Shown here: positions 359-16,672 of the stretch, one piece after another
Position numbering within the stretch: the first letter of the stretch is position 1
How the letters are laid out: every line of letters begins with the position of its first letter
From: an uncultured virus (IMG/VR IMGVR_UViG_3300030010_000003)
Taxonomy: Duplodnaviria > Heunggongvirae > Uroviricota > Caudoviricetes
IMG/VR virus record: IMGVR_UViG_3300030010_000003
Strand: one strand, 5' to 3'
Length of the DNA: 20,000 nt
The notes under the pieces: model-generated
The model's input: only the letters and a program-made list of their open reading frames with translations
The model's database searches: none
Told to the model about the DNA's origin: nothing
Position numbers and translations under genes: made by a program

Positions 359-359
359 G

Positions 360-375
360 ACTACTGGTACGCCTC
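360..375 (-). promoter_or_regulatory. GCGTAYCA motif, copy 1 (GAGGCGTACCAGTAGT-C-ATG)
   Basis: Ends 1 nt before ATG 358; 13 bp identical to 874-886; no Shine-Dalgarno evident. Confidence 0.65.
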
Positions 376-872
376 AGAACGTCGCCAGACCAACCGGGGT
401 GCCCAATGAGTGCATCAATCTCTTTTTCGGAAACGTCTTGGGGGGCGTCGGCGACCACACGCTTGCGCAACCGGGTCGCGTGCTGACGGCTGATGCCGAG
501 CTTCGCCGCCACCTGCGCCGCGCTCATGTAGGCCAGATCCTTGACCATGCCCAACAGCGGCGAGACCCGCTTGGACCGGCAGCCCCCACGGTGGGCCTTC
601 TCGAAGCACTCGTGCTCGGGGTCGTAGTGCTCCAGCGCGTACTCCGCCGCCGAGACAGCCATGTCCGCTGTGAGCAGGTAGGACCGTTCGGTAGCGCCTA
701 ACGGTCGGTGGAGCTTCACACTGACCGTGAAGACCCAGTCGCTGAGCATGTCGACATCCGGGAACGGAGTGCTCGTGCGGCGGAAGGTGTGGAGGTACCG
801 GTTGGCGTTGCCCTTCATCCACCCGAGGACGTCAGAAGAGTCGCCACACTCGGGGTAGGGGAACAGCTTCAC
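374..872 (-). CDS. Rep-like protein (PriCT-like helices plus C-terminal HTH), apparently frameshifted near its 3' end
   Basis: GTG 872: VKLFPYPECGDSSDVLGWMKGNANRYLHTF...DWVFTVSVKLHRPL...MAVSAAEYALEHYDPEHECFEKAHRGGCRSKRVSP...MSAAQVAAKLGISRQHATRLRKR (clear HTH). This frame has no stop inside the window; a TGA at 376-374 lies in the +1 frame, 15 nt before the next ATG. Confidence 0.6.
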
Positions 873-873
873 A

Positions 874-886
874 ACTACTGGTACGC
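874..886 (-). promoter_or_regulatory. GCGTAYCA motif, copy 2 (GCGTACCAGTAGT-T-GTG)
   Basis: Ends 1 nt before GTG 872; identical to 360-372. Confidence 0.65.
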
Positions 887-987
887 GGATCGGACCCGAA
901 AACGCAGCGAGCCCTCGATCAGAGACCAAGGACTCGATGAGCCTTACTCCCCCTACGGGGGTAGTTAGTTAAAGGTTACATAGTGGT

Positions 988-1266
988 TTACGACTTCGAG
1001 CGCAGAAAATCTTCGACGCTGAAGTCCAACGCGGGGGTGTAGTCCCGGTGCCAGTGGATCTCTCCCAAGGGCACCTCATCGGACAGTTCGACGGTCATGG
1101 TCTCCAGCGACTCGACGACCTTGAGCCCACGCCTGCCCTCGAAGATCATCGCCATGCACATCTCCTCCAGCAGACCGTCCCGCTTGGCCAGCATGTCGTG
1201 CACAGCCTTCGAGATGCTGGCCTCCAGCGCTTCTCCCTCCGGCGTCCCTGACCACATGTACTTCAC
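988..1266 (-). CDS. Hypothetical protein (VKYMWSGTPEG...)
   Basis: GTG 1266 overlaps the upstream stop (GTGA); typical codon usage. Confidence 0.75.
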   Translation of the reverse strand: MKYMWSGTPEGEALEASISKAVHDMLAKRDGLLEEMCMAMIFEGRRGLKVVESLETMTVELSDEVPLGEIHWHRDYTPALDFSVEDFLRSKS

Positions 1267-1433
1267 AGCCGGGACACCGTCGTGTAGGCGGGGAGGGCGC
1301 AGTGCTGGCAGGTCGCAGGGACGGTGGTCCTGACCGTGAATGCGGTCCCGAAGTCCACCATCATGGACAGCACCGCCACCAGAGTGTGGTCCTTGCACAC
1401 GGAGGTCTTCGAGAGCCTCTCTGCCGACCTCAC
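1263..1433 (-). CDS. Small hypothetical protein with CxxH/CxxC motifs
   Basis: GTGA overlaps at both ends; VRSAERLSKTSVCKDH...CQHCALPAY. Confidence 0.6.
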   Translation of the reverse strand: MRSAERLSKTSVCKDHTLVAVLSMMVDFGTAFTVRTTVPATCQHCALPAYTTVSRL

Positions 1434-1690
1434 AGCCCCTCCAGAAGGGCGACGTGCCCATAGCCATCCTCCAACTGCTGAACGACCCGCACAGAGGCAG
1501 GATCGAGACCGCGCTTCGTAGCTTCCACCCTGCCCACCATCAGCGCTGCCGTGGTGATGTTCTGGGTCAGCGAGCGCTGGCCATCCACGCGCAGGGTGCG
1601 CTGGGTCTGGGTGCCCGTCATGCGGGCGAAGATCCGCAGCTGAGGCACGGTTCCCCGAACCTCGCTGCGAACCGTCATGGTTGCCACCAT
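1430..1690 (-). CDS. Hypothetical protein
   Basis: TGATG overlap at 1690; alternative ATG at 1678. Confidence 0.7.
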   Translation of the reverse strand: MVATMTVRSEVRGTVPQLRIFARMTGTQTQRTLRVDGQRSLTQNITTAALMVGRVEATKRGLDPASVRVVQQLEDGYGHVALLEGL

Positions 1691-2091
1691 CAGACCTGCA
1701 CGCGCTTCGGCGAGACGGCGGGCTCGGCGTTCTCCCGGTCGATGGACAGGGTCTGCACGACCTTGGTACGGAAGACGTCCAGCTCATCGGCGGGGATGGC
1801 CTTGGTGTCGAGGGAGTGGATGAAGTACTGCGGGAACTGCTCCTCGACGTACTTCTCGGCCAGTGCCTCCATGTCGAGCCTGCGCTGCTCGTTGAGCTTG
1901 ACGATGATCGCGCCGTACTTGTCGCTGGGGTAGACCAGCGTCTTCTTTCCGGAAAGACCGGCGTCGAGGTGAGCCTTCTTGATCTTGGCGTTGAGGATCT
2001 TGTGCTCTTCGGCGAGCGCGGCGATGCCAGCGTCGAGCTGGGCGTAGCGGTCGAGGTCGGCCTGCGTGAGACCGTCGGGCAGTGCAGCCAT
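1690..2091 (-). CDS. Hypothetical protein with N-terminal coiled coil
   Basis: GAAGGA RBS upstream of ATG 2091; first gene after promoter P1. Confidence 0.85.
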   Translation of the reverse strand: MAALPDGLTQADLDRYAQLDAGIAALAEEHKILNAKIKKAHLDAGLSGKKTLVYPSDKYGAIIVKLNEQRRLDMEALAEKYVEEQFPQYFIHSLDTKAIPADELDVFRTKVVQTLSIDRENAEPAVSPKRVQV

Positions 2092-2124
2092 TGTGATTCC
2101 TTCTGTGTTGTTGACCTGTCCCTA

Positions 2125-2153
2125 ACTATAGTCACTTGGGCTCTGCATGTCAA
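2125..2153 (-). promoter_or_regulatory. SigA-type promoter P1 (TTGACA-17-TATAGT) followed by TAGGGACAGGTCAAC
   Basis: -35 at 2153-2148 and -10 at 2130-2125, near consensus. Confidence 0.85.
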
Positions 2154-2187
2154 CTGTTTCTGGAATCAACCTACCGGTGGGCAAGCG

Positions 2188-2220
2188 AAAGCCCGGAGGG
2201 CCACTAACACCTCCGGGCTT
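2188..2220 (-). terminator. Intrinsic terminator after the sliding clamp gene
   Basis: 11-bp inverted repeat AAGCCCGGAGG (2189-2199)/CCTCCGGGCTT (2210-2220) with a short T tail. Confidence 0.75.
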
Positions 2221-2249
2221 CCTGTCGGCGCAACGCGACTGCGCGCAGC

Positions 2250-3476
2250 CTATGACCAGTGGTCCGTCGTCTGCTGGATGATGCCCATCACCCCTGCGTC
2301 CGTGTCGTCGATCAGCAGCGGCGTGCGGTTGGCCTTGGTGTCCCCGCCCATCCTCAGCATCAGCGTGTCGGCGATGCACACCTCCAGCAGATCGGTGAGG
2401 TAGTGATGGTTGTAGAAGACCTCCTTCGGCTTGCCCTTCCACTGGCACTCCACGACCTCCTGCGCCGTGTTGCCTGCCCGGTCCCTACTCTTGACCTCCA
2501 GAGCCCAGTCCGTGGCGCTACGGGCCCCCCTGACGATGCTGAGGGACACCACGGCGATGTCAGGGTCGGCGTTGATCCGCACCCGCTTGATCGCCTCGTA
2601 CAGCTCGTTGCGATCCACCAGCAGCCCGAGGGTGTTGGTGATCTGCGGCCCGAGCAGCAGGGACTGCACGTCAGGGAACGGCAGGAGCATCCTCTGGGCC
2701 ACGATGGAGTCGGCCCCCACCCGGAACACCAGATGGCGCTCGTCGAAGCCCATGAGCAACTCGTCGGCCCCGTCGAGGGCCTTGATCAGCTCGTCGACCG
2801 TCCGCACCGGGATGGTGGTGTCCATGGCCGGGTCGAGCCCCGCCACGGTGGCCTTGTGCAGCCGTCCCCCGTCGCAGGCGACGATGGCGGAGTCCTTGAC
2901 CTTGACCTGCATCAGGGACACCCGGGCGTCTGAGGTGGAGGCAGCCTTGCGGGCAGCCATCAGGGCGCACAGGAAGGGAACCACCGGCACAGGAGCCAGC
3001 TTGATTCCAGAAACCTCGTCGAGCCCCAGCAGGTTCATTTCCCCCACAGGTACCTGCACGGTCCAGCGGGCGCGGCCCGAGCGCACCAGAGCGGTGGAGC
3101 CCACCACAGTGATGTCGACCCGGGTGGTCGGAGCCAGCTTCAGGATGTCCAGCATCCGCTTGGGCGGCAGCAGGACAGCGCCGGGCACCTTGACGTCGAC
3201 ACCGTCCTCCACCACGGAGACCGTCTGCTCCCCGTCGGTGGCCGTGATCCGGAGATGCGCGGCCACCTCGGAGGTGGTGGGAACAGCCTCGAACAGCGCG
3301 AAGGCCGTGCCCGGCACGATCTCCCGGACGGGTGTGACCCCGTTGGCCCGGGAGAACAGCGCCTTCAGCTTGGCGACGTCGGCCTTGATCGACAGCGACG
3401 CCGACGACGGCAGGATCTCGGGGACAAGGTCGTCCTCCAGCTCGCTGAGTTCGAGCAGGCTCATCTGGTCAGACAT
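2250..3476 (-). CDS. dnaN: DNA polymerase III beta sliding clamp
   Basis: 408 aa with beta-clamp motifs: LRITATDGE, PGAVLLP, IVACDGGRLH, PFPDVQSLL, VDRNELYEAIKRV, FYNHHYLTDLL. Confidence 0.9.
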   Translation of the reverse strand: MSDQMSLLELSELEDDLVPEILPSSASLSIKADVAKLKALFSRANGVTPVREIVPGTAFALFEAVPTTSEVAAHLRITATDGEQTVSVVEDGVDVKVPGAVLLPPKRMLDILKLAPTTRVDITVVGSTALVRSGRARWTVQVPVGEMNLLGLDEVSGIKLAPVPVVPFLCALMAARKAASTSDARVSLMQVKVKDSAIVACDGGRLHKATVAGLDPAMDTTIPVRTVDELIKALDGADELLMGFDERHLVFRVGADSIVAQRMLLPFPDVQSLLLGPQITNTLGLLVDRNELYEAIKRVRINADPDIAVVSLSIVRGARSATDWALEVKSRDRAGNTAQEVVECQWKGKPKEVFYNHHYLTDLLEVCIADTLMLRMGGDTKANRTPLLIDDTDAGVMGIIQQTTDHWS

Positions 3477-3672
3477 AGAGCTTCACCAGCAGGGCGTTGA
3501 TCAGGTCGTGGGTGGCGTCGATGTAGTCGTAGAGGGTCTCGTTGCCCCCCTTGTTGAGCTTCTCGACCTTCTTCAGGAGCTTGGCCAGCTCCTTCTTGGT
3601 GGGTACTCCCTGACCGCTGCCGCTGCGCTCGTACGAGGCGTCTTCGACTGCCTGTTTCAGAACCTTGTTCAT
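3469..3672 (-). CDS. Hypothetical protein
   Basis: 67 aa, overlapping both neighbours. Confidence 0.75.
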   Translation of the reverse strand: MNKVLKQAVEDASYERSGSGQGVPTKKELAKLLKKVEKLNKGGNETLYDYIDATHDLINALLVKLYV

Positions 3673-4109
3673 GAGGCCTCCCAGCCCGGGACGATGGTGG
3701 TGGGGATGCCGTGACTCTGCCAGAGCTTGATCACGGCGGGGTTGTCGTCAAACGCACGGATCGGGGTGTAGCCCAGATCGAGGATGCGCTTCAGGATGTC
3801 GGCCTTCACGAAGAAGTCCGGACGCTGGTCATCATCGTTGCGCATCCACAGGCCGTCGCTCGGCACATCGTGCATGGCCAGCCACCACGCGGTGTGATTC
3901 CGGAAACGATGCACCCGGGCGGTCACCACGAGGATGGCCACCCCGGAGGCGTGCAGAGCCTGCGCGCGCTTCACCACCCACTGGTTGGCGGGCACGTTCA
4001 CGCTGGCGCGGTGGAAGGCGTCGAAGTTCCTGACGGGTCCGTTCACGAAGTGCCGGATGCTCCGCACGTCAGCGAGCGTGCCGTCCATGTCGAAGATTGC
4101 AGCTCGCAT
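3669..4109 (-). CDS. HAD-family phosphatase (polynucleotide kinase 3'-phosphatase domain-like)
   Basis: ATG 4109 after AAGGAGG; motifs IFDMDGTLAD, VVTAR, LWMRxxxDxRPDxxVK, AFDDNP. No kinase P-loop domain. Confidence 0.88.
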   Translation of the reverse strand: MRAAIFDMDGTLADVRSIRHFVNGPVRNFDAFHRASVNVPANQWVVKRAQALHASGVAILVVTARVHRFRNHTAWWLAMHDVPSDGLWMRNDDDQRPDFFVKADILKRILDLGYTPIRAFDDNPAVIKLWQSHGIPTTIVPGWEAS

Positions 4110-4122
4110 CGGGAGCCTCCTT

Positions 4123-4401
4123 TCAGGAATCGCGGGTGACGTCGAGGATGGCATCCAGAGCCTCAAGGTAGGTCTCACACACCTTGGACCCCATCAGGCC
4201 GGAGAGCATCCGGTCGGACTGGTAGTTGGCGATGTACTCGACGTTGCTGCGGGCCATCACGACCACGAGGTGGGTCGGGTGGTTGTAGTTCGGGTTGTCG
4301 TAGCTGACCACCCGGTGGGCGGTGCTGTAGAGGTACCGCTCGACGGTGGCGGCTGGAGCATTGGTGACGACCAGCCAGCGGACGTTCGGATCCCCGCTCA
4401 C
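4123..4401 (-). CDS. Hypothetical protein (VSGDPNVRWLVVTN...)
   Basis: GTGA overlap with the upstream stop at 4398-4400. Confidence 0.75.
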   Translation of the reverse strand: MSGDPNVRWLVVTNAPAATVERYLYSTAHRVVSYDNPNYNHPTHLVVVMARSNVEYIANYQSDRMLSGLMGSKVCETYLEALDAILDVTRDS

Positions 4402-5033
4402 TTCGCGTCCGTCCGCATCCAGATGGCCACGACGGCACCCCGGTTGGCCGAGTTGTTGCTCGGCTTGTAGTTCCCGGTCTTGCGCATCAGGCCCCTGCGA
4501 GAGGCGGAGGAGAACAGCGCACCGACGGCGTTGTTGCGGTTCGGCGTGTCGGTGTCCGGGTGGGGCAGGTCGACAGCCCTCACCAGCTCGTTGGCGGAGA
4601 AGAGCGTGCCTGCCGGGAGCTTGACGATCCACGCGTTGGCGCGCTCGGCCCATGCCGCTGCTCCGGTGAGTGCCTTGGTCTGGCCCTCCTCCTTCAGCAT
4701 GAGGCCCTTGGCCAGACCCTTGAGGCCTCGGTCGGTGTTGCTCAGCAGCTTCTCCGGCATGGTGTCCATCGGCACTGCCGTGACGACGATGTCGGCTTCC
4801 TCCGCGAGGAACTGAGCCACCCTGACCTCGACCCCGGTGTAGGGAGCGTCCACGAGCTTGGGGGTCGTGCCCTTGATCATCACCAGTTCGCCGGGCTGCA
4901 TCCCGCTCAGCGGGAGAGCGTCCTGCACGGGCTCGGTGATGGGTGCCGGGGGCTGGCCGGGGAGACGCCGGGTGACCGCGATGGGATTGGCCATCAGGCC
5001 CCTGCGCAGCTTGTCGTACTTGCCCTTGCTCAT
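4398..5033 (-). CDS. Hypothetical protein, probable C-terminal winged-helix domain
   Basis: FSANELVRAVDLP...NAVGALFSSASRRGLMRKTG...VAIW pattern; first gene after promoter P2. Confidence 0.7.
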   Translation of the reverse strand: MSKGKYDKLRRGLMANPIAVTRRLPGQPPAPITEPVQDALPLSGMQPGELVMIKGTTPKLVDAPYTGVEVRVAQFLAEEADIVVTAVPMDTMPEKLLSNTDRGLKGLAKGLMLKEEGQTKALTGAAAWAERANAWIVKLPAGTLFSANELVRAVDLPHPDTDTPNRNNAVGALFSSASRRGLMRKTGNYKPSNNSANRGAVVAIWMRTDAK

Positions 5034-5072
5034 GCTGACCGCCTTGTTTCGTGAATCTGGGTTGACGTCTCT

Positions 5073-5101
5073 AGTATAAGACTGTCCTTACCTAGAGTCA
5101 A
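5073..5101 (-). promoter_or_regulatory. SigA-type promoter P2 (TTGACT-17-TATACT) followed by AGAGACGTCAAC
   Basis: -35 at 5101-5096, -10 at 5078-5073; boxes TAAGGACA (5090-5083) and TAGAGACG (5073-5066). Confidence 0.8.
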
Positions 5102-5309
5102 GCTCGATGTCAGAGAGATCGTCAGGGACCTTCGAGATGTGGGCGAGCTGGAGATGCTCAACAGCCTTCTCCCACGCAGAGAACCCCATGACGCACACCG
5201 TGCAGATCACCAGCGGTGAAGGCTCAGGAGCGGTGTTGGAAAGGGCAGCGTAGATCACCAGCCCTCCCACCAGCAGGACAGCACCGACGGTGACGAGAGC
5301 TGTGATCAC
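5088..5309 (-). CDS. Small membrane protein with C2H2 zinc-finger-like motif
   Basis: Hydrophobic N-terminus ITALVTVGAVLLVGGLVIYAAL, then CTVCVMGFSAWEKAVEHLQLAH. Confidence 0.75.
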   Translation of the reverse strand: MITALVTVGAVLLVGGLVIYAALSNTAPEPSPLVICTVCVMGFSAWEKAVEHLQLAHISKVPDDLSDIELDSR

Positions 5310-5554
5310 GCCCCGGCCTCTACCAGTGAGGCCTCGATCTCGGCGACGGCGGAGTCCAGTTCGGCCCGCAGCTCGGTGAGCTTGGACTTGGCTTCCTCGT
5401 TGGTCTCGACGCCGAACTCGTCCTTCAGCACCTTGCGCGCATCCGCGAGCCGGGACTTGGCGTTCTCCAGCTCGACGGCGGAGCGTGCCTTCTTGTTCTG
5501 CACCTGCGCGATGGCCCCACGGACCTCACGGATCTGATCTTCAATAGCGGCCAT
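5306..5554 (-). CDS. Small coiled-coil protein (possible middle segment of split Rad50/SbcC)
   Basis: 82 aa helix-turn(LKDEFGVET)-helix with heptad pattern; AGGAGG RBS. Confidence 0.8.
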   Translation of the reverse strand: MAAIEDQIREVRGAIAQVQNKKARSAVELENAKSRLADARKVLKDEFGVETNEEAKSKLTELRAELDSAVAEIEASLVEAGA

Positions 5555-5574
5555 GGTTGGCCTCCTCTCCCCTC

Positions 5575-5587
5575 ACTGATACGCCTC
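5575..5587 (-). promoter_or_regulatory. GCGTAYCA motif, copy 3 (GAGGCGTATCAGT)
   Basis: Directly after the HNH stop codon and upstream of the RBS of 5306-5554. Confidence 0.6.
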
Positions 5588-6151
5588 TCAGGCGCTGAGG
5601 CTCAGAACGAACTGGTTGTAGTACCTGTCACCCTCCAGCTTGAAATCAGCTAAGGGATGTCTGGACACGAACTCTCTGGCTGCTGCACAGGACCTACAGG
5701 CTCGGCGACCGTTCTCCCACTGCCGTAAGCAGAGATTGGGTTCCTGCAAGGGATGGCCCCGAGGGCAGTGTGTTCGATTCCGCTTGGTATCAGTTCCATG
5801 GGCAATCTGGTCCAGTCGGTTCTCCGAGTGAGTTCCCCACTGAAGATTGGACACCCGGTTGTTGTCTCGGTCCCCGTCTAGGTGCCTGCACTCCAGCCCC
5901 TCAGGACGAGGTCCATGGAAGGCCTTGGCCACCAAGGAGTGAACCGCAGGAAGTGACGTCTTGCTCCTGTAGGACACCGCCACCAACCAGTAACCTCTGG
6001 GGCCCATGAAGGGAACAAGAATCCTTCCCGGATAACTTCGCTTCCCTCCAGTGGAGTAGGTGACAACGCGAGCCAGAGCCCGAACTCTGCCGAGATCGGA
6101 CACCTCGTAGTAGCCCCCATACCCCAAGATGGGAAGCCATGTCTCAGTCAC
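5588..6151 (-). CDS. NUMOD4-HNH homing endonuclease
   Basis: ETWLPILGYGGYYEVSDLGRVR (NUMOD4), VHSLVAKAF, CRHLDGDRDNNRVSNLQWGTHSEN (HNH), THCPRGH..CRSC tail; visibly lower GC than flanks. Confidence 0.93.
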   Translation of the reverse strand: MTETWLPILGYGGYYEVSDLGRVRALARVVTYSTGGKRSYPGRILVPFMGPRGYWLVAVSYRSKTSLPAVHSLVAKAFHGPRPEGLECRHLDGDRDNNRVSNLQWGTHSENRLDQIAHGTDTKRNRTHCPRGHPLQEPNLCLRQWENGRRACRSCAAAREFVSRHPLADFKLEGDRYYNQFVLSLSA

Positions 6152-7005
6152 ATTGAGATCCTCTTCTTGCCCTGCTTATCAATGATGGGCTCGAACTTGG
6201 TACACGCATGACGTGTAGGACAAAAACCGCAGGGACCAGTTCCCTCGACCGGGGTCTTGATGTCCAGCAGGATGTCGTTGGCCATGCCGAGGATCCTCTG
6301 GAGGAGCTGGTTTCTGGAATCGACGGTCGGCTTGTAGGCCTTGACCCGCTCCTTGCACAGCGGCTGGAAGAGCCCGGTCATGGCCGTGGCCTGCCCGAAC
6401 ATCAGCTCAACGGCGAGATCGTAGAAACCGAGCTGGCCGACGGTCTTGCGCCAGTAGGACTCGTCCTTGGTGTGCTTGACGTCCCAGACGATCCAGCGGC
6501 CCTTGTCGTCGCGCACGAGGATGTCCATGTAGCCGTTGAGGATGATCTGCTCGGGCTCCCCAGTGCGCGGGTGGTTGATCAGGATCTCCGCCTCGAAGTG
6601 CTTGTCGGCCTCGAAGTCGAACGGCACGACGTACTTCAGCAGGATCGGCTCGATGGCCTTCACCGCCTCGGTGCAGTCGGCCACCACCAGCTTGCGGTCC
6701 CCGGGGTTGCGCCAGCGGACGACGCCCTCACCCTTGGAGACCAGCTCTTCCTTCTCGGACTCGATGGTGGCGTCGACCATGGACGGCATCTCACCGATGT
6801 GATCGAGCGGGTCGTTGTTCAGCCAGTCACGAACGACCCGGTCGGTCACCGATCCGGGAAGGAAGTTGCGCTTGTTGTCCAGTGTGCCGAGCTTGTGGGT
6901 GCGCGCCAGATGGCTGCGCTGTTTGCACTCCTCGTGAACCCGTAGCCCAGACCAGCTGAGCCGAACGGTCACGCGGCCACACTCCTTGCACGTCTGGTTG
7001 GCCAC
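6148..7005 (-). CDS. Cas4/RecB-like PD-(D/E)XK exonuclease
   Basis: LSWSGLRVHEECKQR, GYMDILV, VWDVKHTK, QLGFY and C-terminal CGFCPTRHAC (1+3 Cys Fe-S pattern). Confidence 0.88.
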   Translation of the reverse strand: MANQTCKECGRVTVRLSWSGLRVHEECKQRSHLARTHKLGTLDNKRNFLPGSVTDRVVRDWLNNDPLDHIGEMPSMVDATIESEKEELVSKGEGVVRWRNPGDRKLVVADCTEAVKAIEPILLKYVVPFDFEADKHFEAEILINHPRTGEPEQIILNGYMDILVRDDKGRWIVWDVKHTKDESYWRKTVGQLGFYDLAVELMFGQATAMTGLFQPLCKERVKAYKPTVDSRNQLLQRILGMANDILLDIKTPVEGTGPCGFCPTRHACTKFEPIIDKQGKKRISM

Positions 7006-7012
7006 GCCAACA

Positions 7013-7249
7013 TCATGCCGTCTGGGAGACCGCTTCCTCAGCAGGCTCCGTGCTCACGGTGGCCTTGTGGTTGGCGAACGCCTTCTCGGCAGCCTCCACG
7101 GTGAAGAGGTGTGCTCCTGTGCGTCCCGGCAGGGTCTGGGCGGGCTTGATCTTCTCGGCGTCGACCCAGCGCTGCACAGTCTTGCGCGCGACGCCGTACT
7201 TGGTGACGATCTCCGAGATGGTGATCAGCGGCTGATCTTCGGTGCTCAT
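7013..7249 (-). CDS. Excisionase/MerR-like helix-turn-helix DNA-binding protein
   Basis: LITISEIVTKYGVARKTVQRWVDAEKIKPA...GAHLF; GAAGGA RBS; own promoter P3. Confidence 0.85.
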   Translation of the reverse strand: MSTEDQPLITISEIVTKYGVARKTVQRWVDAEKIKPAQTLPGRTGAHLFTVEAAEKAFANHKATVSTEPAEEAVSQTA

Positions 7250-7306
7250 GATTCCTTCGTTTCTCGATATGTCTGGCTGGCGGTGGTTGTCTAATCCTTG
7301 GGACTA

Positions 7307-7335
7307 ATGGTAGTCCATAACTAGGGACAGGTCAA
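7307..7335 (-). promoter_or_regulatory. SigA-type promoter P3 (TTGACC-17-TACCAT) containing an inverted TAGGGACAGGTCAA element
   Basis: -35 at 7335-7330, -10 at 7312-7307; plus-strand 7322-7335 reads TAGGGACAGGTCAA. Confidence 0.75.
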
Positions 7336-11478: not shown

Positions 11479-11660
11479 CAGGCCTGCGTCCCGTACTTGA
11501 CCGCGAGCATCAGTTCGAGGTCGCTCTGGATGGCGGTGATCGCCTTGCGCAGCTCGTGATTCATGAAACGAGGGTTTCCCTCCGAGCTGGTGGCGTACAG
11601 CGAGATGTGCATCCCGTCCCCGGTCTCCACAGTGATGGTGACCGACTTGAGGATGGCCAT
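11478..11660 (-). CDS. Hypothetical protein
   Basis: TGATG overlaps at both ends. Confidence 0.7.
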   Translation of the reverse strand: MAILKSVTITVETGDGMHISLYATSSEGNPRFMNHELRKAITAIQSDLELMLAVKYGTQA

Positions 11661-11863
11661 CAGAGGTTGCCTTCGTCGGTCTCGTTGACCATGTCGGGGA
11701 GCGGGTGCTTCTCGCAGGACCAGAGCTTCAGGCGGCGTGCGCCTGCCGTGCTGAAGTACATGACGCTCTGCGGCTGGAAGACGGCCTTCTCACCGCACTC
11801 CTTGCAGGGCAGGACCTTGAAGTCGTGGTCCGGGGTCCCCTCGGGGACGAGCTTGTAAGCCAT
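11660..11863 (-). CDS. Small zinc-binding hypothetical protein
   Basis: CKECG...SCEKH; AAGGAG RBS; first gene after promoter P5. Confidence 0.75.
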   Translation of the reverse strand: MAYKLVPEGTPDHDFKVLPCKECGEKAVFQPQSVMYFSTAGARRLKLWSCEKHPLPDMVNETDEGNL

Positions 11864-11896
11864 TGCAATACTCCTTGTTCGTTGACCGATGTCTTT

Positions 11897-11926
11897 ACCT
11901 TAGGTCACCTGAATGACCCATGTCAA
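11897..11926 (-). promoter_or_regulatory. SigA-type promoter P5 (TTGACA-18-TAAGGT), divergent from P6
   Basis: -35 at 11926-11921, -10 at 11902-11897; followed by AAAGACATCGGTCAAC. Confidence 0.8.
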
Positions 11927-11950
11927 GGACATCTTTTCTGGAAACGAGGA

Positions 11951-11985
11951 TTGACCAAGCTAGGGACAGGTGGTAAGCTAGGTAC
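11951..11985 (+). promoter_or_regulatory. SigA-type promoter P6 (TTGACC-17-TAAGCT), leaderless
   Basis: ATG 11986 follows the -10 after a 6-nt gap; AAGCTAGG(G/T)ACA repeated at 18-bp spacing. Confidence 0.85.
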
Positions 11986-12273
11986 ATGAGCAACCGCGTA
12001 GAGATCACAGCAGTCCTCGACCTCCCCACCCCCGTCAAGGTCCCCATCTCGGTGGGTGGTCGGATGAGGGAAGAGACCGTCGTCTCCGTCGAGTGGACCG
12101 CCACCGCGTACGTCGTCGAGAACGAGGTCCGGGTTCGCATCCGTGGCCTTGGCCGGGGACACTACAGCGTCTGGATCAGCTTCCCCGAGGAGACCGCCCC
12201 CAAGTGGGCCCCGAAGCCGCCGCAGGCCATCAAGGGCATCGCGAGCACCATGCTGAAGGGGATGCTGGCGTGA
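11986..12273 (+). CDS. Hypothetical protein
   Basis: Leaderless start at P6; strong G/C third-position bias. Confidence 0.85.
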   Translation: MSNRVEITAVLDLPTPVKVPISVGGRMREETVVSVEWTATAYVVENEVRVRIRGLGRGHYSVWISFPEETAPKWAPKPPQAIKGIASTMLKGMLA

Positions 12274-12518
12274 GCAACCTGCCTCCGGGCGTTTATGGAA
12301 ACGAGGATGCCTTCGGCCCTCAGGCTGAGTACGACGTCGAGGCCGACCTCACCTACGTGTGCGACTCCTGCCAGAAGCCTTCGCCGAAGACCATCACCCG
12401 GATCGTCTGGTCCTCGGGTGCCGAAGACCTCTGGGACTGCGAGTGTGGCCACCAGAACAGCCGCGTGGTTGAAGAGGAGTCATCCTTCGACGACCCGGAC
12501 TACGGGAGGGACGAATGA
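12270..12518 (+). CDS. Acidic zinc-ribbon hypothetical protein
   Basis: GTGA overlap; VSNLPPGVYG...CDSC...WDCECGHQN. Confidence 0.8.
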   Translation: MSNLPPGVYGNEDAFGPQAEYDVEADLTYVCDSCQKPSPKTITRIVWSSGAEDLWDCECGHQNSRVVEEESSFDDPDYGRDE

Positions 12519-12946
12519 TCGACTTCGTACACGACGACGGCGGCAGGGCTGAGGCGGGGTTCAAGGGCACCGCCAACGACTGTGGGGTGCGAGCCTTGGC
12601 CATCGCCACCGGCAGGCCGTACAAGGAGGTCTACGACCTCGTCAACGAGTACTGCGCCAAGGAGAAGCCCTCCAAGACCCGGCGCGGGATCTCCAGCTCG
12701 CGCACCGGCCTGCACACCGTGACCATGCGCAAGATCTGCGAGGACCTCGGAGCGATCTGGGTGCCGACCATGGCCATCGGCTCAGGCACCACGATCCACG
12801 TGAACGCCGAGGAGCTGCCGGTGGGAGGCCGCTACATCCTGCGGGTGAGCAAGCACTACGTCGCCTACGTGGACGGCATCCTGAAGGACAACCACAACCC
12901 GGCACGCGATGGCACCCGGGCGGTCTACGGCTACTGGTCCTTCTGA
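12515..12946 (+). CDS. Conserved-looking phage protein with putative Cys-His-Asp triad
   Basis: DDGGRxxAGFKG, NDCGVRALAIATG, KHYVAYVDG, DNHNP, VYGYW. Confidence 0.8.
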   Translation: MIDFVHDDGGRAEAGFKGTANDCGVRALAIATGRPYKEVYDLVNEYCAKEKPSKTRRGISSSRTGLHTVTMRKICEDLGAIWVPTMAIGSGTTIHVNAEELPVGGRYILRVSKHYVAYVDGILKDNHNPARDGTRAVYGYWSF

Positions 12947-12958
12947 GCCGGAACAGTC

Positions 12959-13000
12959 GAAGGCCCGAACCGGTTGAGCTTCACGGTTCGGGCCTTCTTT
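12959..13000 (+). terminator. Intrinsic terminator of the plus-strand operon
   Basis: 14-bp stem GAAGGCCCGAACCG/CGGTTCGGGCCTTC followed by TTT. Confidence 0.85.
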
Positions 13001-13135
13001 GTGGTCAACTACCCGGTCGCTCCCCCCCAGTTGTCCCCGAGTATGAGGGCCAGTCGTTGGATTGGGCCAGTCGTTGGATTGGGCCAGTCGACTGGCTGCC
13101 CTGTTGACCATGTGTCGACCGCTAGGTCTTCACGT
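12960..13135 (-). ncRNA. Candidate structured non-coding RNA
   Basis: Downstream of promoter P7, no credible ORF or RBS, TGGTCAAC/GTTGACCA closing stem, internal tandem repeats, ends at a strong hairpin. Inference only. Confidence 0.4.
13047..13096. repeat. 17-bp tandem repeat (GGGCCAGTCGTTGGATT x2 plus 10-bp partial) ending in palindrome GCCAGTCGACTGGC
   Basis: Units 13047-13063, 13064-13080, 13081-13090; palindrome 13083-13096. Confidence 0.95.
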
Positions 13136-13141
13136 AGGGAC

Positions 13142-13171
13142 AACGTATCGCTACTTACAGGGGCTAGTCAA
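13142..13171 (-). promoter_or_regulatory. SigA-type promoter P7 (TTGACT-18-TACGTT) with inverted TAGGGACA box
   Basis: -35 at 13171-13166, -10 at 13147-13142; plus-strand TAGGGACA at 13135-13142. Confidence 0.6.
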
Positions 13172-13180
13172 GGACATAGG

Positions 13181-13224
13181 AAAAGCCCGGAAGGTTCTGC
13201 CCCCTCACTCAGAACCTTCCGGGC
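13181..13224 (-). terminator. Intrinsic terminator of the minus-strand operon
   Basis: 15-bp stem GCCCGGAAGGTTCTG/CAGAACCTTCCGGGC followed by TTTT on the minus strand. Confidence 0.88.
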
Positions 13225-13241
13225 CATCCCACCCAGTGGGA

Positions 13242-13424
13242 TCAGGAAACCTGCACTCGCTGATCCCAGCGGACCTTGCCTCCCGTGACCGGCACGTCGA
13301 AGAAGTGCTCACGGTCCTCCACGTGCATGATCTGCTCGCTGGCTGGCATCACGAACTTCTCGCCGTCCTTGGGACCACCCCACCACTGGACCTGCTTCAT
13401 CGGCCTCGGAGCTGCCACGGTCAT
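13242..13424 (-). CDS. Hypothetical protein (GGPxDG motif)
   Basis: MTVAAPRPMKQVQWWGGPKDG; ATGA overlap. Confidence 0.7.
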   Translation of the reverse strand: MTVAAPRPMKQVQWWGGPKDGEKFVMPASEQIMHVEDREHFFDVPVTGGKVRWDQRVQVS

Positions 13425-13780
13425 GCCGCCTTCAGCTCGATCCACGCCTGAGGGGTACGGATCGGCAGCCCGAGCATCCCGGCCACCTGTACCTCCAGCC
13501 GTGCGCCCGGGGAGAGCCACCACTCCTCCTGTGCGGCCACTCCCGTGCAACGCAGCAGCCGAGTGAGGCCCATGCGGATGTAGTCGGCGTAGGAGGTGGT
13601 GCCGTCCCCTTCGTCGTCTGCCGGGTTCTCCACGCCGTACCCCACAGCCCTCAGATCAGCCGCTGTGGCGTTGAACAGAGGCAGGTTGTGTTCCGGTACC
13701 CCGGACATCCTGCCCGCCACGTAGAGGATCTCCTCGGGCTCGGAGGTGGGGTAGTAGACGTTGGTGTCGATGAACTTCAC
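13421..13780 (-). CDS. DUF4406 / nucleoside 2-deoxyribosyltransferase-like protein
   Basis: GTG 13780; LYVAGRMSG, NLPLFN, VENPA, YIRMGLTRLLRC, WWLSPGARLE. Confidence 0.8.
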   Translation of the reverse strand: MKFIDTNVYYPTSEPEEILYVAGRMSGVPEHNLPLFNATAADLRAVGYGVENPADDEGDGTTSYADYIRMGLTRLLRCTGVAAQEEWWLSPGARLEVQVAGMLGLPIRTPQAWIELKAA

Positions 13781-14313
13781 AGGGTCTCCTTCGGGTACTT
13801 CTGCTCGTGTGCTGCCATGACCTGTGATCCCAGCACCTCGGACCACTGGGTGCCCAGCGTCTCGCTGGAAGAGCCCCTGTAGGACAGCTGGACCCACGCT
13901 GCGCCGTCGTGCACGAACGGGGTCGGGTACATCATCACCAGACCGGAGTTGGTCTCGGCTCCCATGACCATGCCCGGCAGACCGGGCACCCGGGCGTTCT
14001 CGAAGGTGATCGAGGCCATCTCCTTGTTGAGGGGGTTCTTGGCGAAGGGAGCCCAGCCGTTCTTGAGCGCCTTCCACTGGCCGCTGGTGGGCTTGGCCCC
14101 GGTGACTCCCACGATCCGGTAGGAGCCGAAGGAGCCCCGCATCAAGGTGTGCACCTCACCACCCACCGTGCGCGGGATGCCATGCTTCTGACCCCACTCG
14201 TGCGCGAGCTTGCCCCATGCGTTGCGGCCCTCCTCGTTAGCGAGGCAGACGGCCACCGTCTCCGGGTCGTCGGTGCGCAGGTACTGCGGGATGTTCACCT
14301 TGTCGGTGCTCAC
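13777..14313 (-). CDS. Hypothetical protein
   Basis: 178 aa, GTGA overlaps, GGAG RBS. Confidence 0.8.
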   Translation of the reverse strand: MSTDKVNIPQYLRTDDPETVAVCLANEEGRNAWGKLAHEWGQKHGIPRTVGGEVHTLMRGSFGSYRIVGVTGAKPTSGQWKALKNGWAPFAKNPLNKEMASITFENARVPGLPGMVMGAETNSGLVMMYPTPFVHDGAAWVQLSYRGSSSETLGTQWSEVLGSQVMAAHEQKYPKETL

Positions 14314-15075: not shown

Positions 15076-16251
15076 TCAGTCGCCCTTCACGTTCAGAATC
15101 TGGCGGAGCTTGTGCTTGATCGTGACGAGGTCGGCGGCGTCGGCCATGATGATGTCGATGTCCTTGTAGGCAGCCGGGATCTCGTCGATGAACGCGTCGG
15201 TGTGGCGGTACTCGATCCCCAGCATGGACTCCTCCAGCTCAGCCATCGTGAACTTCTTGCGCGCAGCGGAGCGGCTGTAGTTGCGGCCAGCGCCGTGCGG
15301 TGAGGAGTTCAGCGAGAGCCGGTTGCCCTTGCCCTCGACCACGTAGGAGGCCGTGCCCATCGAGCCCGGGATCAGGCCCATGTCACCCTCCTGAGCCCGG
15401 ATCGCACCCTTGCGGGAGACCCAGACCTCCTTGCCGAAGTGGCGCTCCTTGGCGGTGAAGTTGTGGTGGCAGTTGACCTCCTCCTGAATGATCAAGGTCT
15501 CGCACATGTGGACCTGCATCTCCCGGATCACGCGGGCCATCATCTCCTCGCGGTTCTGGACGGCGAAGTCCTGCGCCCACATCAGCTCCCGCATGTAGGC
15601 CCAGAACTCCTCGGTGCCCTCCACGAGGTAGGCGAGGTCCGGATCCGGCAGGGAGATCCAGTACTGCTTCATCAGGTCGGCAGCCACCTTGATGTGGTGC
15701 TGGGCGATCTTGTTGCCAACGCCCCGGGAGCCGGAGTGCAGGAACAGCCAGACCGCGCCGGTCTCGTCAACCGTGACCTCGATGAAGTGGTTACCCGAGC
15801 CCAGCGAGCCGAGCTGGAGCTTCCAGTTGGAGGCGTACCGGGCCGGGTCGAACCCGAGGTTCCCCGCCTGCATGGCCAGCTTGGTGATCCGGTCCTGCGT
15901 GTCGGGCCGGACGAAGGTGTTGTACTTGCCTGCGCTCGTTGGGACAACCTCTTCGATGGCCTCCCGCAGGTTGCTCAGGGCTCCGGCCTTGCGGACCTGC
16001 TCCTCGGTCCACTGGGTCTTGACCGCGATCATGCCGCAGCCGATGTCCACGCCGACGGCAGCCGGGATGATGGCGTTCAGGGTGGGGATGACGGAGCCGA
16101 CGGTGGCTCCCTTCCCGAGGTGGGCGTCGGGCATCAGGGCGAGGTGCGGGAAAATGAACTCCAGTGAGGAAGACGTGAGAGCCTGCTCGCGAGTGTTCGT
16201 TTCAAGAATCGACGCCCAGCTGATGAGCTTCTTTCCCAAGTGTTCAGGCAT
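15076..16251 (-). CDS. rtcB: RtcB RNA ligase
   Basis: MPDAHLGKGATVG, VGVDIGCG, LGSLGSGNHFIE, LHSGSRG, CHHN, RKGA, IPGSMG, SSPHGAGR, DEIPAAYK. Confidence 0.97.
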   Translation of the reverse strand: MPEHLGKKLISWASILETNTREQALTSSSLEFIFPHLALMPDAHLGKGATVGSVIPTLNAIIPAAVGVDIGCGMIAVKTQWTEEQVRKAGALSNLREAIEEVVPTSAGKYNTFVRPDTQDRITKLAMQAGNLGFDPARYASNWKLQLGSLGSGNHFIEVTVDETGAVWLFLHSGSRGVGNKIAQHHIKVAADLMKQYWISLPDPDLAYLVEGTEEFWAYMRELMWAQDFAVQNREEMMARVIREMQVHMCETLIIQEEVNCHHNFTAKERHFGKEVWVSRKGAIRAQEGDMGLIPGSMGTASYVVEGKGNRLSLNSSPHGAGRNYSRSAARKKFTMAELEESMLGIEYRHTDAFIDEIPAAYKDIDIIMADAADLVTIKHKLRQILNVKGD

Positions 16252-16672
16252 TGATCTTGAACTCCTTCGTCCGGCGCTTGCCGGTAATGATTTTGCTGAT
16301 GGTGGGTTGGGTCACGCTGTACTTCTCTGCCAACAGCCGCTGAGTGAGCGGACCATCGGCGTATTCCTGTCGGATCGCTCTCACCAGAGACTTGCTCAAC
16401 TTGACGTTGTGGTGAGCTTCTCCAAACGGCATCCTGTTCCTGTCCGCCGCGTCCTGAACATTGTTGGCCTGCGTGCCCAGCAGGAGGTGACTGAGCCGGA
16501 CACACGGTGGGTTGTCGCACCGATGGCGCACAACCTTCCCAGCAGGGATCGGCCCGTATGCCTGTTCGTACGCCACACGATGCGCTAAGAACTTCCGGCG
16601 AGTGACCACTCCGTACCCAGCCGCGTTTCTGGACCCTGTCCACTCCTCACAGGGTCCTAGCTCTTTGGTCAT
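16244..16672 (-). CDS. HNH homing endonuclease with C-terminal HTH
   Basis: CEEWTG, GYG, AHRVAY, VRHRCDNPPCVRLSHLLLGTQANN, TQRLLAEKYSVTQPTISKI. Confidence 0.93.
   Translation of the reverse strand: MTKELGPCEEWTGSRNAAGYGVVTRRKFLAHRVAYEQAYGPIPAGKVVRHRCDNPPCVRLSHLLLGTQANNVQDAADRNRMPFGEAHHNVKLSKSLVRAIRQEYADGPLTQRLLAEKYSVTQPTISKIITGKRRTKEFKINA

What the first reader, a model, noticed from the sequence alone, without database searches (positions are those of the whole stretch)
12959..13224. Insulated island with its own promoter, 17-nt repeats and alternative pairings: candidate undescribed phage ncRNA
Seen: about 180 bp of non-coding DNA sits between two converging strong terminators. It holds a minus-strand promoter (TTGACT-18-TACGTT) with the phage TAGGGACA box and no credible ORF. 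The implied ~175-nt RNA has a closing stem (UGGUCAAC 13110-13103 with GUUGACCA 13009-13002). A single GCCAGUCG segment is complementary to three CGACUGGC copies spaced 17 nt apart (the first overlaps it as a palindrome), and C-rich repeat segments could pair with downstream G runs. Inference: a multi-register structured RNA, for example a protein sponge, an antitoxin or anti-defence decoy, or a regulator. The alternative is iteron-like DNA sites.
Basis: partly seen in the sequence, partly recalled or inferred. Interest (0 to 1): 0.8.

Follow-up and report, generated by a model that had tools for sequence, protein, structure and literature searches.

The report
Candidate small RNA gene in peat phage
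A 180-base gap between two converging gene blocks of an uncultured peat phage most likely encodes a small non-coding RNA with its own promoter; one related phage keeps it, but its eye-catching repeats are not kept and nothing yet shows that it is transcribed.

Summary

Only one relative holds the region, an IMG/VR contig (L006) about 77% identical.
- It keeps the -35 and -10 hexamers and the 18-nt spacing. The spacer itself is scrambled (5 of 18 identical).
- It keeps two blocks of the transcribed part at 75 of 82 positions, against 166 of 245 at four-fold sites.
- It breaks the 109-aa ORF after 12 codons.

Best reading: an independent transcription unit making a non-coding RNA of about 180 nt.

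- The "multi-register" design is not conserved. The relative has 1.6 repeat copies and a changed partner segment.
- The core does not fold exceptionally (z -2.2 and -1.5), and folding does not tell the strands apart.
- No RNA data exist.

The helices are invariant rather than covarying, so the sequence itself is probably recognised. A protein-bound DNA site cluster therefore remains a serious rival. There is no Rfam match, no paralogue and no third homologue. Function is unknown; my preferred mechanism is a regulatory RNA that overlaps the 3' end of the convergent operon.

The parts
13185..13224 (-). Terminator hairpin of the upstream minus-strand genes (15-bp stem, 10-nt loop, then UUUUCC)
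   Evidence: Perfect inverted repeat. In L006 all 15 pairs are kept: 4 changed on both sides and 2 changed from G-C to G-U, which pairs only on the minus-strand RNA. The loop AGUGAGGGGG is identical at 10 of 10 positions.
13166..13171 (-). -35 hexamer TTGACT
   Evidence: L006 has TTGACG (5 of 6).
13148..13165 (-). 18-nt promoter spacer; length kept, sequence not
   Evidence: 5 of 18 identical to L006.
13142..13147 (-). -10 hexamer TACGTT (TANNNT type)
   Evidence: L006 has TACCGT.
13135..13142 (+). TAGGGACA box, inverted relative to this promoter, overlapping the last base of the -10 and the expected start site
   Evidence: One of 4 exact copies against 0.24 expected. L006 has TTGGGACA.
12955..13135 (-). 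Candidate non-coding RNA, about 180 nt. The start is inferred 7 nt after the -10. The end is inferred after the 3' hairpin.
   Evidence: No conserved ORF. Blocks 13098-13135 and 12998-13041 are 35 of 38 and 40 of 44 identical to L006, against 166 of 245 at four-fold sites. No expression data.
13112..13133 (-). 5' hairpin H1: GUG/CAC and GACC/GGUC around a UAGC loop
   Evidence: Predicted in all four single-sequence folds and both alignment folds. Stem invariant. The one substitution (A to G) lies in the internal loop.
13103..13110 (-). 5' arm of the closing stem (UGGUCAAC)
   Evidence: Invariant in L006.
13047..13096 (.). Variable zone: 2.6 tandem 17-nt repeats and the 14-nt palindrome
   Evidence: The zone 13042-13097 is 28 of 56 identical to L006, which lacks 18 nt and has 1.6 copies. 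No copy-number variant in window-type contigs of 4 runs.
13022..13028 (-). G7 run in the RNA (C7 on +), predicted to pair with the CCC and UCCA of the first repeat copy
   Evidence: Alignment fold. Invariant in L006.
13002..13009 (-). 3' arm of the closing stem (GUUGACCA)
   Evidence: Invariant in L006.
12959..12997 (.). 14-bp hairpin: terminator of the + operon (tail UUUGUGG) and, read on the minus strand, the 3' hairpin of the candidate RNA (no U-tail there)
   Evidence: In L006 both 14-nt arms are identical to the window's, as the printed rows show; all 5 differences among the 39 positions lie in the loop.
12515..12946 (+). Convergent gene: 143-aa protein of a widespread viral family of unknown function, last gene of the + island 11986-12946
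   Evidence: phrog_3754 at E 3.6e-12. 118 relatives in viral contigs.
13242..13424 (-). Last upstream minus-strand gene (60 aa, no family)
   Evidence: ATGA overlap with the DUF4406 gene. 71% identical to the L006 homologue.

Best explanation
The gap is an independent small transcription unit. A host-sigma-A-type promoter (-35 at 13171..13166, -10 at 13147..13142, minus strand) sits 13 nt after the terminator of the upstream genes. It makes a non-coding RNA of roughly 180 nt running from about 13135 to about 12955.

The RNA has four parts:
- a small invariant 5' hairpin;
- an 8-bp closing stem (UGGUCAAC/GUUGACCA);
- inside that stem, a variable repeat-bearing domain that pairs with a G7 run;
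- a 14-bp 3' hairpin that is the complement of the terminator of the convergent + operon.

Shown: the promoter signature, the absence of a conserved ORF, and purifying selection on the transcribed blocks.

Inferred: that the RNA accumulates, where it ends, and what it does.

The helices are invariant where a structure-only helix next door covaries. I therefore infer that the sequence itself is read by a partner. The one partner the sequence shows directly is the 3' end of the convergent operon's mRNA, fully complementary over the shared hairpin of about 45 nt. My preferred mechanism is a cis-antisense regulatory RNA acting on that operon's 3' end, affecting its stability or processing, with the conserved 5' domain as a binding platform for a protein or RNA not yet identified. 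The 17-nt repeat number is incidental slippage.
For: Promoter:
- TTGAC-N19-TANNNT occurs 5 times in the window against 0.04 expected.
- With spacers of 16-19 nt the pattern occurs 9 times in 78.9 kb of this genome. All 9 are in the window, and the other 8 lie directly upstream of genes in the right orientation.
- In L006 the hexamers (TTGACG, TACCGT) and the 18-nt spacing are kept while the spacer is 5 of 18 identical.

Selection: blocks 13098-13135 and 12998-13041 are 75 of 82 identical, against 166 of 245 four-fold sites in five flanking genes (binomial p 3.5e-7).

Non-coding: the 109-aa ORF is cut to 12 codons in L006, as I read from the L006 row of the alignment. Indels of 1 and 18 nt break the frames.

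Structure:
- The 5' hairpin and closing stem are predicted in every fold.
- One pair is changed on both sides (CCC/GGG to CUC/GAG).
- The relative's changed 5' arm still finds a 5-bp partner in its changed repeat copy.
- Substitutions in the conserved blocks fall at unpaired positions of the predicted fold.

Against: - No expression data.
- Only two sequences, so covariation is anecdotal: of 51 predicted pairs, 49 never vary, 1 changes on one side and 1 on both.
- The core without the 3' hairpin is not clearly more stable than shuffles (z -2.24 and -1.52).
- The + strand folds as well or better (alignment folds -68.35 against -66.2).
- On the minus strand the 3' hairpin has no U-tail, so termination there is uncertain.
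- Other promoter cassettes of this phage are about 95-100% identical to L006 as plain DNA regulatory sequence. High non-coding conservation is therefore not specific to RNA genes here.
- The antisense overlap explains neither the conservation of the first ~135 nt nor the invariance of the shared hairpin.
Confidence: 0.5

Rival explanations
1. A cluster of protein-binding DNA sites (operator or insulator type) rather than an RNA gene. The invariant words are bound by the same unknown phage regulator that reads the TAG(G/A)GACA and GGTCAAC words at the phage's gene promoters. The words are GGTCGAC-N4-GGTCAAC on one side, GCGACC-N5-GTTGACC in inverted orientation about 90 bp away, and two outward-facing GGGACA boxes. 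The promoter is then a regulated or decoy promoter at the junction of converging transcription.
For: - Helices are invariant instead of covarying (49 of 51 pairs), whereas the neighbouring terminator covaries (4 of 15 pairs changed on both sides). This points to sequence-specific recognition.
- The same short words recur at the 8 gene promoters.
- Promoter cassettes are conserved as DNA at about 95-100% between the two phages.
- Folding does not favour either strand.
Against: - The composite site seen at promoters (GACAGGTCAA) is absent from the gap.
- The two boxes vary between the phages while the stretches between the sites are also conserved. Site-only constraint does not predict that.
- It does not explain why the -35, -10 and exact spacing are kept over a scrambled spacer.
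- The 17-mers, the most iteron-like feature, are the least conserved part (28 of 56).
Confidence: 0.2
2. No discrete small RNA. The promoter launches a long minus-strand transcript that reads through the U-less hairpin and runs antisense across the + island (12946 to 11986), possibly into the next minus-strand genes. It silences the island by transcriptional interference. The conserved leader acts in cis, for example as an antitermination or attenuation element.
For: - The hairpin 12997..12959 is followed on the minus strand by GACUGUUCC, with no U-tract.
- The promoter faces the island's own strong promoter at 11951 (+).
- The 16-nt stretch 13079-13094 is 75% complementary to 12954-12969, which is one arm of the hairpin plus its flank. 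That offers an alternative pairing.
Against: - The alternative pairing is not competitive. Forcing the terminator's 5' arm open costs 19.3 kcal/mol in the window (-84.1 to -64.8) and 19.9 in L006 (-78.9 to -59.0).
- The next minus-strand gene has its own canonical promoter at 11926.
- No data on read-through.
Confidence: 0.15
3. A transcription-primed replication origin. The dedicated promoter makes a G-rich RNA (G7 run) that stays hybridised to the C7 template as an R-loop primer, inside the DNA-metabolism gene region.
For: - A promoter followed by an invariant G7 run in the RNA.
- Neighbours include a clamp-like protein, an exonuclease, a polynucleotide kinase and RtcB.
- Transcription is insulated by the flanking hairpins.
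Against: - No AT-rich unwinding element. The lowest 25-nt GC in the gap is 44%, and that window is the promoter itself.
- Cumulative GC skew shows no turning point at the gap.
- Direct repeats are not conserved in number or sequence.
- No initiator gene identified.
Confidence: 0.05
4. Nothing functional beyond the two terminators. The similarity of the blocks to L006 is a leftover of recent recombination between two phages that share a habitat, and the promoter match is a relic.
For: - Both phage types occur in the same peat metagenome runs.
- Module exchange at conserved cassettes is visible elsewhere: the gene after the 11926 promoter differs between the two phages while the cassette is kept.
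- Divergence varies between genes (four-fold identity 0.56 to 0.76).
Against: A recent exchange would give uniform identity. Instead, conserved blocks (about 0.91) alternate over tens of bases with scrambled stretches (spacer 5 of 18, repeat zone 28 of 56), and the boundaries coincide with promoter hexamers.
Confidence: 0.1

Closest known systems
Abundant intergenic non-coding RNAs of actinobacteriophages: the cluster A mycobacteriophage right-end RNA, the D29 63-64 intergenic RNA, and Rhodococcus phage WC1 nc_1 to nc_3
   Same: Phages of high-GC Actinobacteria. Intergenic, no conserved ORF, driven by an early-type host promoter, function unknown (passages read in PMC5712189, and PMC10986025).
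   Different: Those RNAs were seen by RNA-seq or northern blot; this one was not. No sequence similarity: blastn of 12400-13800 against 50,697 phage records found nothing. The cluster A RNA comes from a region of about 500 bp at a genome end, not from a gap between converging units.
3'-overlapping convergent antisense RNAs: lambda oop, P22 sar, E. coli GadY, Bacillus subtilis SR4/bsrG and RatA/txpA (recalled from my own knowledge, no paper read here)
   Same: A small RNA with its own promoter placed just beyond the 3' end of a convergent gene and transcribed towards it. The two transcripts share a two-way hairpin.
   Different: Here the overlap would be only the hairpin of about 45 nt, ending 13 nt short of the stop codon. 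The convergent gene encodes a 143-aa soluble-looking protein, not a small membrane toxin. Most of the RNA (about 135 nt) lies outside the overlap and is the conserved part.
Pseudo-ToxI of Pectobacterium phage PhiTE (RNA mimic of a type III antitoxin; PMC3475682, abstract and passages read)
   Same: A transcribed intergenic phage locus with a short tandem repeat whose copy number differs between close relatives in steps of one unit (1.5 to 4.5 or 5.5 there; 1.6 against 2.6 here), as expected from strand slippage.
   Different: The unit is 17 nt, not 36, too short for the ToxI-type pseudoknot. No similarity to any known antitoxin was tested or found. No selection experiment. In L006 the extra copy is degenerate.
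Iterons and asymmetric operator arrays such as cluster A mycobacteriophage stoperators (PMC9283540 and PMC6550527, search listing and abstract starts only; 13-mer in WC1, passage in PMC10986025)
   Same: Short asymmetric words containing the complement of a -35-like TTGAC, recurring at and after promoters of an actinophage.
   Different: The gap lacks the composite word found at the gene promoters. Its tandem 17-mers are not conserved. No repressor is identified, and the phage looks large and lytic.

Membership tests
Any Rfam family (release 15) | Covariance-model score at or above the family's gathering score | tested here: not met
   10 matches at E up to 10 in 12500-13700. The best is 21.4 bits against a gathering score of 60, and all sit on the terminator hairpins or coding DNA; no tRNA or tmRNA in the window.
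Free-standing bacterial or phage small RNA gene (generic kind) | Own promoter, conserved in relatives | tested here: met
   the pattern is enriched (5 against 0.04). Hexamers and the 18-nt spacing are kept in L006 over a scrambled spacer.
Free-standing bacterial or phage small RNA gene (generic kind) | No conserved open reading frame | tested here: met
   (read by eye from the alignment): the 109-aa ORF ends after 12 codons in L006, and indels of 1 and 18 nt break the frames; no matching long frame in L006.
Free-standing bacterial or phage small RNA gene (generic kind) | Intrinsic terminator on the RNA's own strand | tested here: inconclusive
   14-bp GC-rich hairpin, but no U-tract on the minus strand.
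Free-standing bacterial or phage small RNA gene (generic kind) | Secondary structure supported by covariation | tested here: inconclusive
   of 51 pairs, 1 changed on both sides, 1 on one side, 49 invariant. Two sequences only. Core z-scores -2.24 and -1.52.
Free-standing bacterial or phage small RNA gene (generic kind) | Detected transcript | not testable with these tools
   24 runs listed, none on record as RNA.
Type III antitoxin RNA or pseudo-ToxI mimic | Tandem repeats of about 34-45 nt, each able to form the toxin-binding fold | tested here: not met
   the unit is 17 nt, 2.6 copies. The unit length of known systems is taken from PMC3475682 (36 nt) and otherwise recalled.
Type III antitoxin RNA or pseudo-ToxI mimic | Adjacent endoribonuclease toxin gene (for a resident system) | tested here: not met
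   no toxin or defence family in 7 neighbouring proteins (PADLOC) or in 17 ORFs scanned (Pfam, PHROGs).
Type I toxin-antitoxin with 3'-overlapping antisense RNA | Convergent small hydrophobic toxin ORF overlapped by the RNA | tested here: not met
   the convergent gene encodes a 143-aa protein of a widespread viral family. The overlap would stop 13 nt before its stop codon.
Iteron-type replication origin | Three or more direct repeats conserved in sequence and number, next to an AT-rich unwinding element | tested here: not met
   2.6 copies against 1.6, zone 28 of 56 identical; lowest 25-nt GC is 44%.
Known actinophage non-coding RNAs (cluster A right end, WC1 nc regions) | Sequence similarity to those loci | tested here: not met
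   no blastn match of 12400-13800 in the phage collection at either sensitivity. I did not check that each of those phages is in the collection.

The most novel reading that the evidence does not exclude
The RNA is an expandable decoy. Its repeat-bearing domain titrates a host defence or RNA-binding factor, in the manner of the PhiTE pseudo-ToxI mimic but with a much shorter unit. The one-unit difference in copy number between two phage lineages that coexist in the same peat samples would then be a trace of an ongoing arms race. The invariant flanking domain would provide folding and stability.
Probability: 0.07. Interest if true: 0.75.

Novelty: new member of a known kind. Interest (0 to 1): 0.35.

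Why it matters
Phage-encoded small RNAs are few and mostly known from enterobacterial phages. In actinobacteriophages several abundant non-coding RNAs have been seen, but none has a known role. This locus adds a compact, clearly delimited candidate (promoter, about 180 nt, hairpin) from an uncultured phage lineage with an estimated genome of about 125 kb. It shows an unusual pattern: invariant helices next to a covarying terminator, which argues that a partner reads the sequence. If transcribed, it would be a tractable case for asking what such RNAs do. As it stands it is a reasonable but unproven candidate, seen in only two genomes.

Tried and rejected
- Third homologue. None found.
  - Viral contigs: exact 17-mer gave 4 loci, all single copies in unrelated contexts. 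The exact 18-mer of block 1 gave only L006's contig.
  - Protein-anchored viral scans: DUF4406 (2 loci, one syntenic), the 60-aa protein, the 143-aa protein (80 loci kept of 118, and the region was found only in L083, which is L006's contig), and the 178-aa protein.
  - Metagenome scan: 56 loci. Only L011 was close, and it is 100% identical to L006.
  - Genome contigs: protein scan found none. The 18-mer gave 16 loci, about the number I estimate by chance for an 18-mer in a collection of that size, and none matches beyond 23 nt.
- Paralogues. None in the other 58.9 kb of this genome (G001), in the rest of L006's contig, or in Microbacterium phage Magritte, the nearest isolated phage, whose clamp-like protein is 49.9% identical.
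- RNA evidence. No RNA holder listed among 24 runs.
- Contigs of 4 runs. They showed only the window type and the L006 type, no third variant and no repeat-number variant.
- Target search by duplex energy over the window. Uninformative: apart from the region's own complement, energies form a continuum (mean -44, sd 8).
- Terminator/antiterminator switch. Energetically uncompetitive.
- GC skew. No signal.
- PDB sequence search of the 143-aa protein. Nothing below E 0.068.
- PADLOC. Nothing.
- Small ORFs. I read them by eye: the ORF from the leaderless GTG is 3 codons, and the 25-codon TTG ORF after the G-run changes frame in L006. I ran no tool on them.
- Earlier notes of this scan. Nothing on this genome or sequence.

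Full report
**What the window is.** The window is 63.6% GC. It carries mostly minus-strand genes of a large phage: a clamp-like protein, polynucleotide kinase, exonuclease, two HNH endonucleases, RtcB, a pyrophosphatase and a DUF4406 protein.
- Its own assembly is not held.
- A 65.6-kb IMG/VR record, G001, is 100% identical to window 1-6701 and is rated 53% complete, so the genome is probably about 125 kb.
- Twenty-four peat metagenome DNA runs hold the stretch.
- The nearest isolated phage is Microbacterium phage Magritte. Its clamp-like protein is 49.9% identical and its gene order differs.

- Minus-strand genes end at 13242 with a 60-aa gene that overlaps the DUF4406 gene by ATGA.
- A perfect 15-bp hairpin follows at 13224..13185, then UUUUCC.
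- A three-gene + island (11986-12946) converges on it. The island ends with a 143-aa protein of a widespread viral family.
- The island is followed by a perfect 14-bp hairpin at 12959-12997, then UUUGUGG.
- Between the hairpins lie the promoter, the TAGGGACA box, the closing-stem arms, the 2.6 tandem 17-mers and the 14-nt palindrome, exactly as described.
- The generic scan called neither the promoter nor the terminators. I attribute this to a -10 far from TATAAT and to loops longer than its limit.

**The promoter is credible on the phage's own terms.**
- TTGAC-N19-TANNNT occurs 5 times in the window against 0.04 expected.
- With spacers of 16-19 nt there are 9 sites in 78.9 kb of this genome. 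All 9 are in the window. Eight stand directly upstream of genes in the right orientation, and the ninth is this one.
- It shares 11 nt around the -35 with the promoter at 11926.
- It differs from most of the others. Its -10 is TACGTT rather than TAAGNT, its spacer holds no box, and the box after the -10 is inverted. The last feature is shared with the promoter of an HTH gene at 7335.

**Relatives.** One relative holds the region: IMG/VR contig IMGVR_UViG_3300031722_000138 (L006). The same sequence appears as a metagenome contig (L011, 100% identical). It is syntenic and about 77% identical in DNA across window 13728-12532. All other scans found no third homologue and no paralogue (see Tried and rejected). 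Contigs of four runs show the window type and the L006 type side by side in the same samples. No third variant appears, and there is no repeat-number polymorphism within the window type.

**What the comparison shows.** Reading the minus strand from 13241 towards 12947:

| Segment | Identical to L006 |
|---|---|
| Upstream terminator, 5' arm | 11 of 15 |
| Upstream terminator, 3' arm | 9 of 15 |
| Upstream terminator, loop | 10 of 10 |
| -35 hexamer | 5 of 6 |
| Spacer (length 18 kept) | 5 of 18 |
| -10 hexamer (TACGTT against TACCGT, both TANNNT) | 4 of 6 |
| Block 13098-13135 | 35 of 38 |
| Repeat zone 13042-13097 (L006 lacks 18 nt) | 28 of 56 |
| Block 12998-13041 | 40 of 44 |
| 3' hairpin 12959-12997 (both arms unchanged; all 5 differences in the loop) | 34 of 39 |

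- In the upstream terminator all 15 pairs are kept, four through changes on both sides and two as G-U on the minus strand only.
- Four-fold degenerate sites of five flanking genes are 166 of 245 identical. The two blocks together (75 of 82) are significantly more conserved (binomial p 3.5e-7).
- The alternation of scrambled and conserved stretches, with boundaries at the hexamers, argues for selection and against a recent recombination patch.
In L006 it stops after 12 codons, as I read from the alignment, and the ORF list of L006 shows no matching long frame.

**Structure.**
- Single-sequence folds of both phages give the same outline on the minus strand: 5' hairpin, closing stem, inner hairpins, 3' hairpin.
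- The alignment fold adds a long-range helix between the first repeat copy and the G7 run. It contains one pair changed on both sides (CCC/GGG to CUC/GAG) and one changed on one side. The other 49 of 51 pairs never vary.
- In L006 the 5' arm GCCAGUCG has become GUCCGUCG, and the repeat copy it pairs with has changed too, leaving a 5-bp CCGUC/GACGG helix. This looks like joint change, but I cannot put a number on it.
- Against a strongly structured RNA: without the 3' hairpin the core has z -2.24 (6 of 200 shuffles as good) in the window and -1.52 (12 of 200) in L006. The + strand scores -4.65 and -1.81.
- The + strand alignment fold is as good as the minus one (-68.35 against -66.2 kcal/mol). 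Folding does not choose the strand; the promoter does.

**The multi-register idea.** The three CGACUGGC partners exist only in the window's phage. L006 has one exact copy and one degenerate copy, and its GCCAGUCG is altered. The repeat number (2.6 against 1.6) behaves like slippage in the least constrained part of the locus. I therefore do not take the registers as designed.

**What constrains the invariant parts.** The terminator next door shows that this level of divergence is enough to produce compensatory changes in a helix that needs only its shape (4 of 15 pairs). The 5' hairpin, the closing stem and the 14-bp 3' hairpin show none. Either a partner reads their sequence, or each segment has several alternative partners so that compensation is blocked. 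The sequence is indeed built from a few recurring words: GGUC/GACC, GUCGAC, CGACUGG, GGCCC/GGGCC. The same logic fits protein-bound DNA. That reading gains weight because the phage's ordinary promoter cassettes are about 95-100% identical between the two phages, spacers included. I rank it as the main rival.

**Mechanism.** The step I regard as shown is that a promoter is maintained here by selection and points into a conserved non-coding stretch. That an RNA of about 180 nt accumulates is inferred. The only pairing partner the sequence itself reveals is the 3' end of the convergent operon's mRNA, whose terminator is the complement of the RNA's 3' hairpin. This is the geometry of 3'-overlapping antisense RNAs (recalled examples: oop, sar, GadY, SR4). 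It does not explain the conserved 5' 135 nt, which I take to be a platform for an unidentified protein or RNA. A terminator/antiterminator switch is energetically implausible. An R-loop origin lacks an AT-rich element and a skew signal. No neighbouring protein matches a toxin or defence family.

**Comparison with what is known.**
- No Rfam family matches, and nothing in 50,697 phage records is similar.
- The closest known kind is the set of abundant, functionally unexplained intergenic RNAs of actinobacteriophages (PMC5712189 and PMC10986025, passages read).
- The repeat behaviour recalls pseudo-ToxI of PhiTE (PMC3475682, abstract and passages), but the 17-nt unit fails that family's defining feature.
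- I file it as a new member of a known kind, a candidate phage small RNA. It is restricted, as far as these collections show, to two phage genomes from peat.

| Reading | Probability |
|---|---|
| Non-coding RNA gene | 0.5 |
| DNA site cluster | 0.2 |
| Read-through antisense promoter | 0.15 |
| Non-functional leftover | 0.1 |
| Transcription-primed origin | 0.05 |

Interest is moderate to low (0.35). The locus is tidy and testable, but it has no expression data, only two sequences, and no pointer to a specific function.

Noticed in passing
window 2153, 5101, 7335, 10910, 11926, 17956, 19597 (minus) and 11951 (plus): promoter -35 positions: A promoter class TTGACN-N17/18-TANNNT occurs only in this 20-kb part of 78.9 kb of the genome. 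Five of the promoters carry two direct TAG(G/A)(G/T)ACA boxes 18 nt apart, one in the spacer and one fused to the -10. Four have G(G)TCAAC within 22 nt after the -10. The orthologous cassettes in L006 are nearly identical, spacers included. This looks like operator sites of an unidentified regulator, comparable in idea to stoperators.
   Followed up: partly
window 7249-7335 (minus) and 13135-13171 (minus): The promoter of the MerR/excisionase-like HTH gene (7013-7249) and the promoter of the candidate RNA share a TACnnT -10 followed by GTCCC, the box in inverted orientation. They may be co-regulated.
   Followed up: no
window 13200-13209: The loop of the upstream terminator (AGUGAGGGGG on the minus strand) is identical in L006 while its stem has four compensatory pairs. 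The loop sequence seems constrained for an unknown reason.
   Followed up: no
window 12515-12946 (+): The 143-aa protein (phrog_3754) belongs to a family found in 118 viral contigs ranging from 26% to 68% GC, and in jumbo phages of unrelated hosts (Phosso, Tunturi_5, Mx1). Cys23 and His114 are invariant between the two phages compared here. A weak atlas lead points to Peptidase_C39 (15% of one cluster). No solved relative by sequence.
   Followed up: partly
window 12270-12518 (+) against L006 3073-3260 (-): The middle gene of the + island differs between the two phages. The window has a CxxC...CxC zinc-ribbon-like protein of about 82 aa. L006 has an unrelated small protein.
   Followed up: no
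window 11660-11926 (minus) against L006 3605-4070: The gene behind the 11926 promoter is replaced by a different gene in L006, while the divergent promoter cassette (window about 11870-12050) is almost 100% identical. This suggests module exchange at conserved promoter cassettes.
   Followed up: partly
window 5588-6151 and 16244-16672 (minus): Two HNH endonuclease genes, one with an HTH tail, lie among the DNA- and RNA-repair genes (RtcB 15076-16251, polynucleotide kinase 3669-4178). No tRNA gene is in the window.
   Followed up: no
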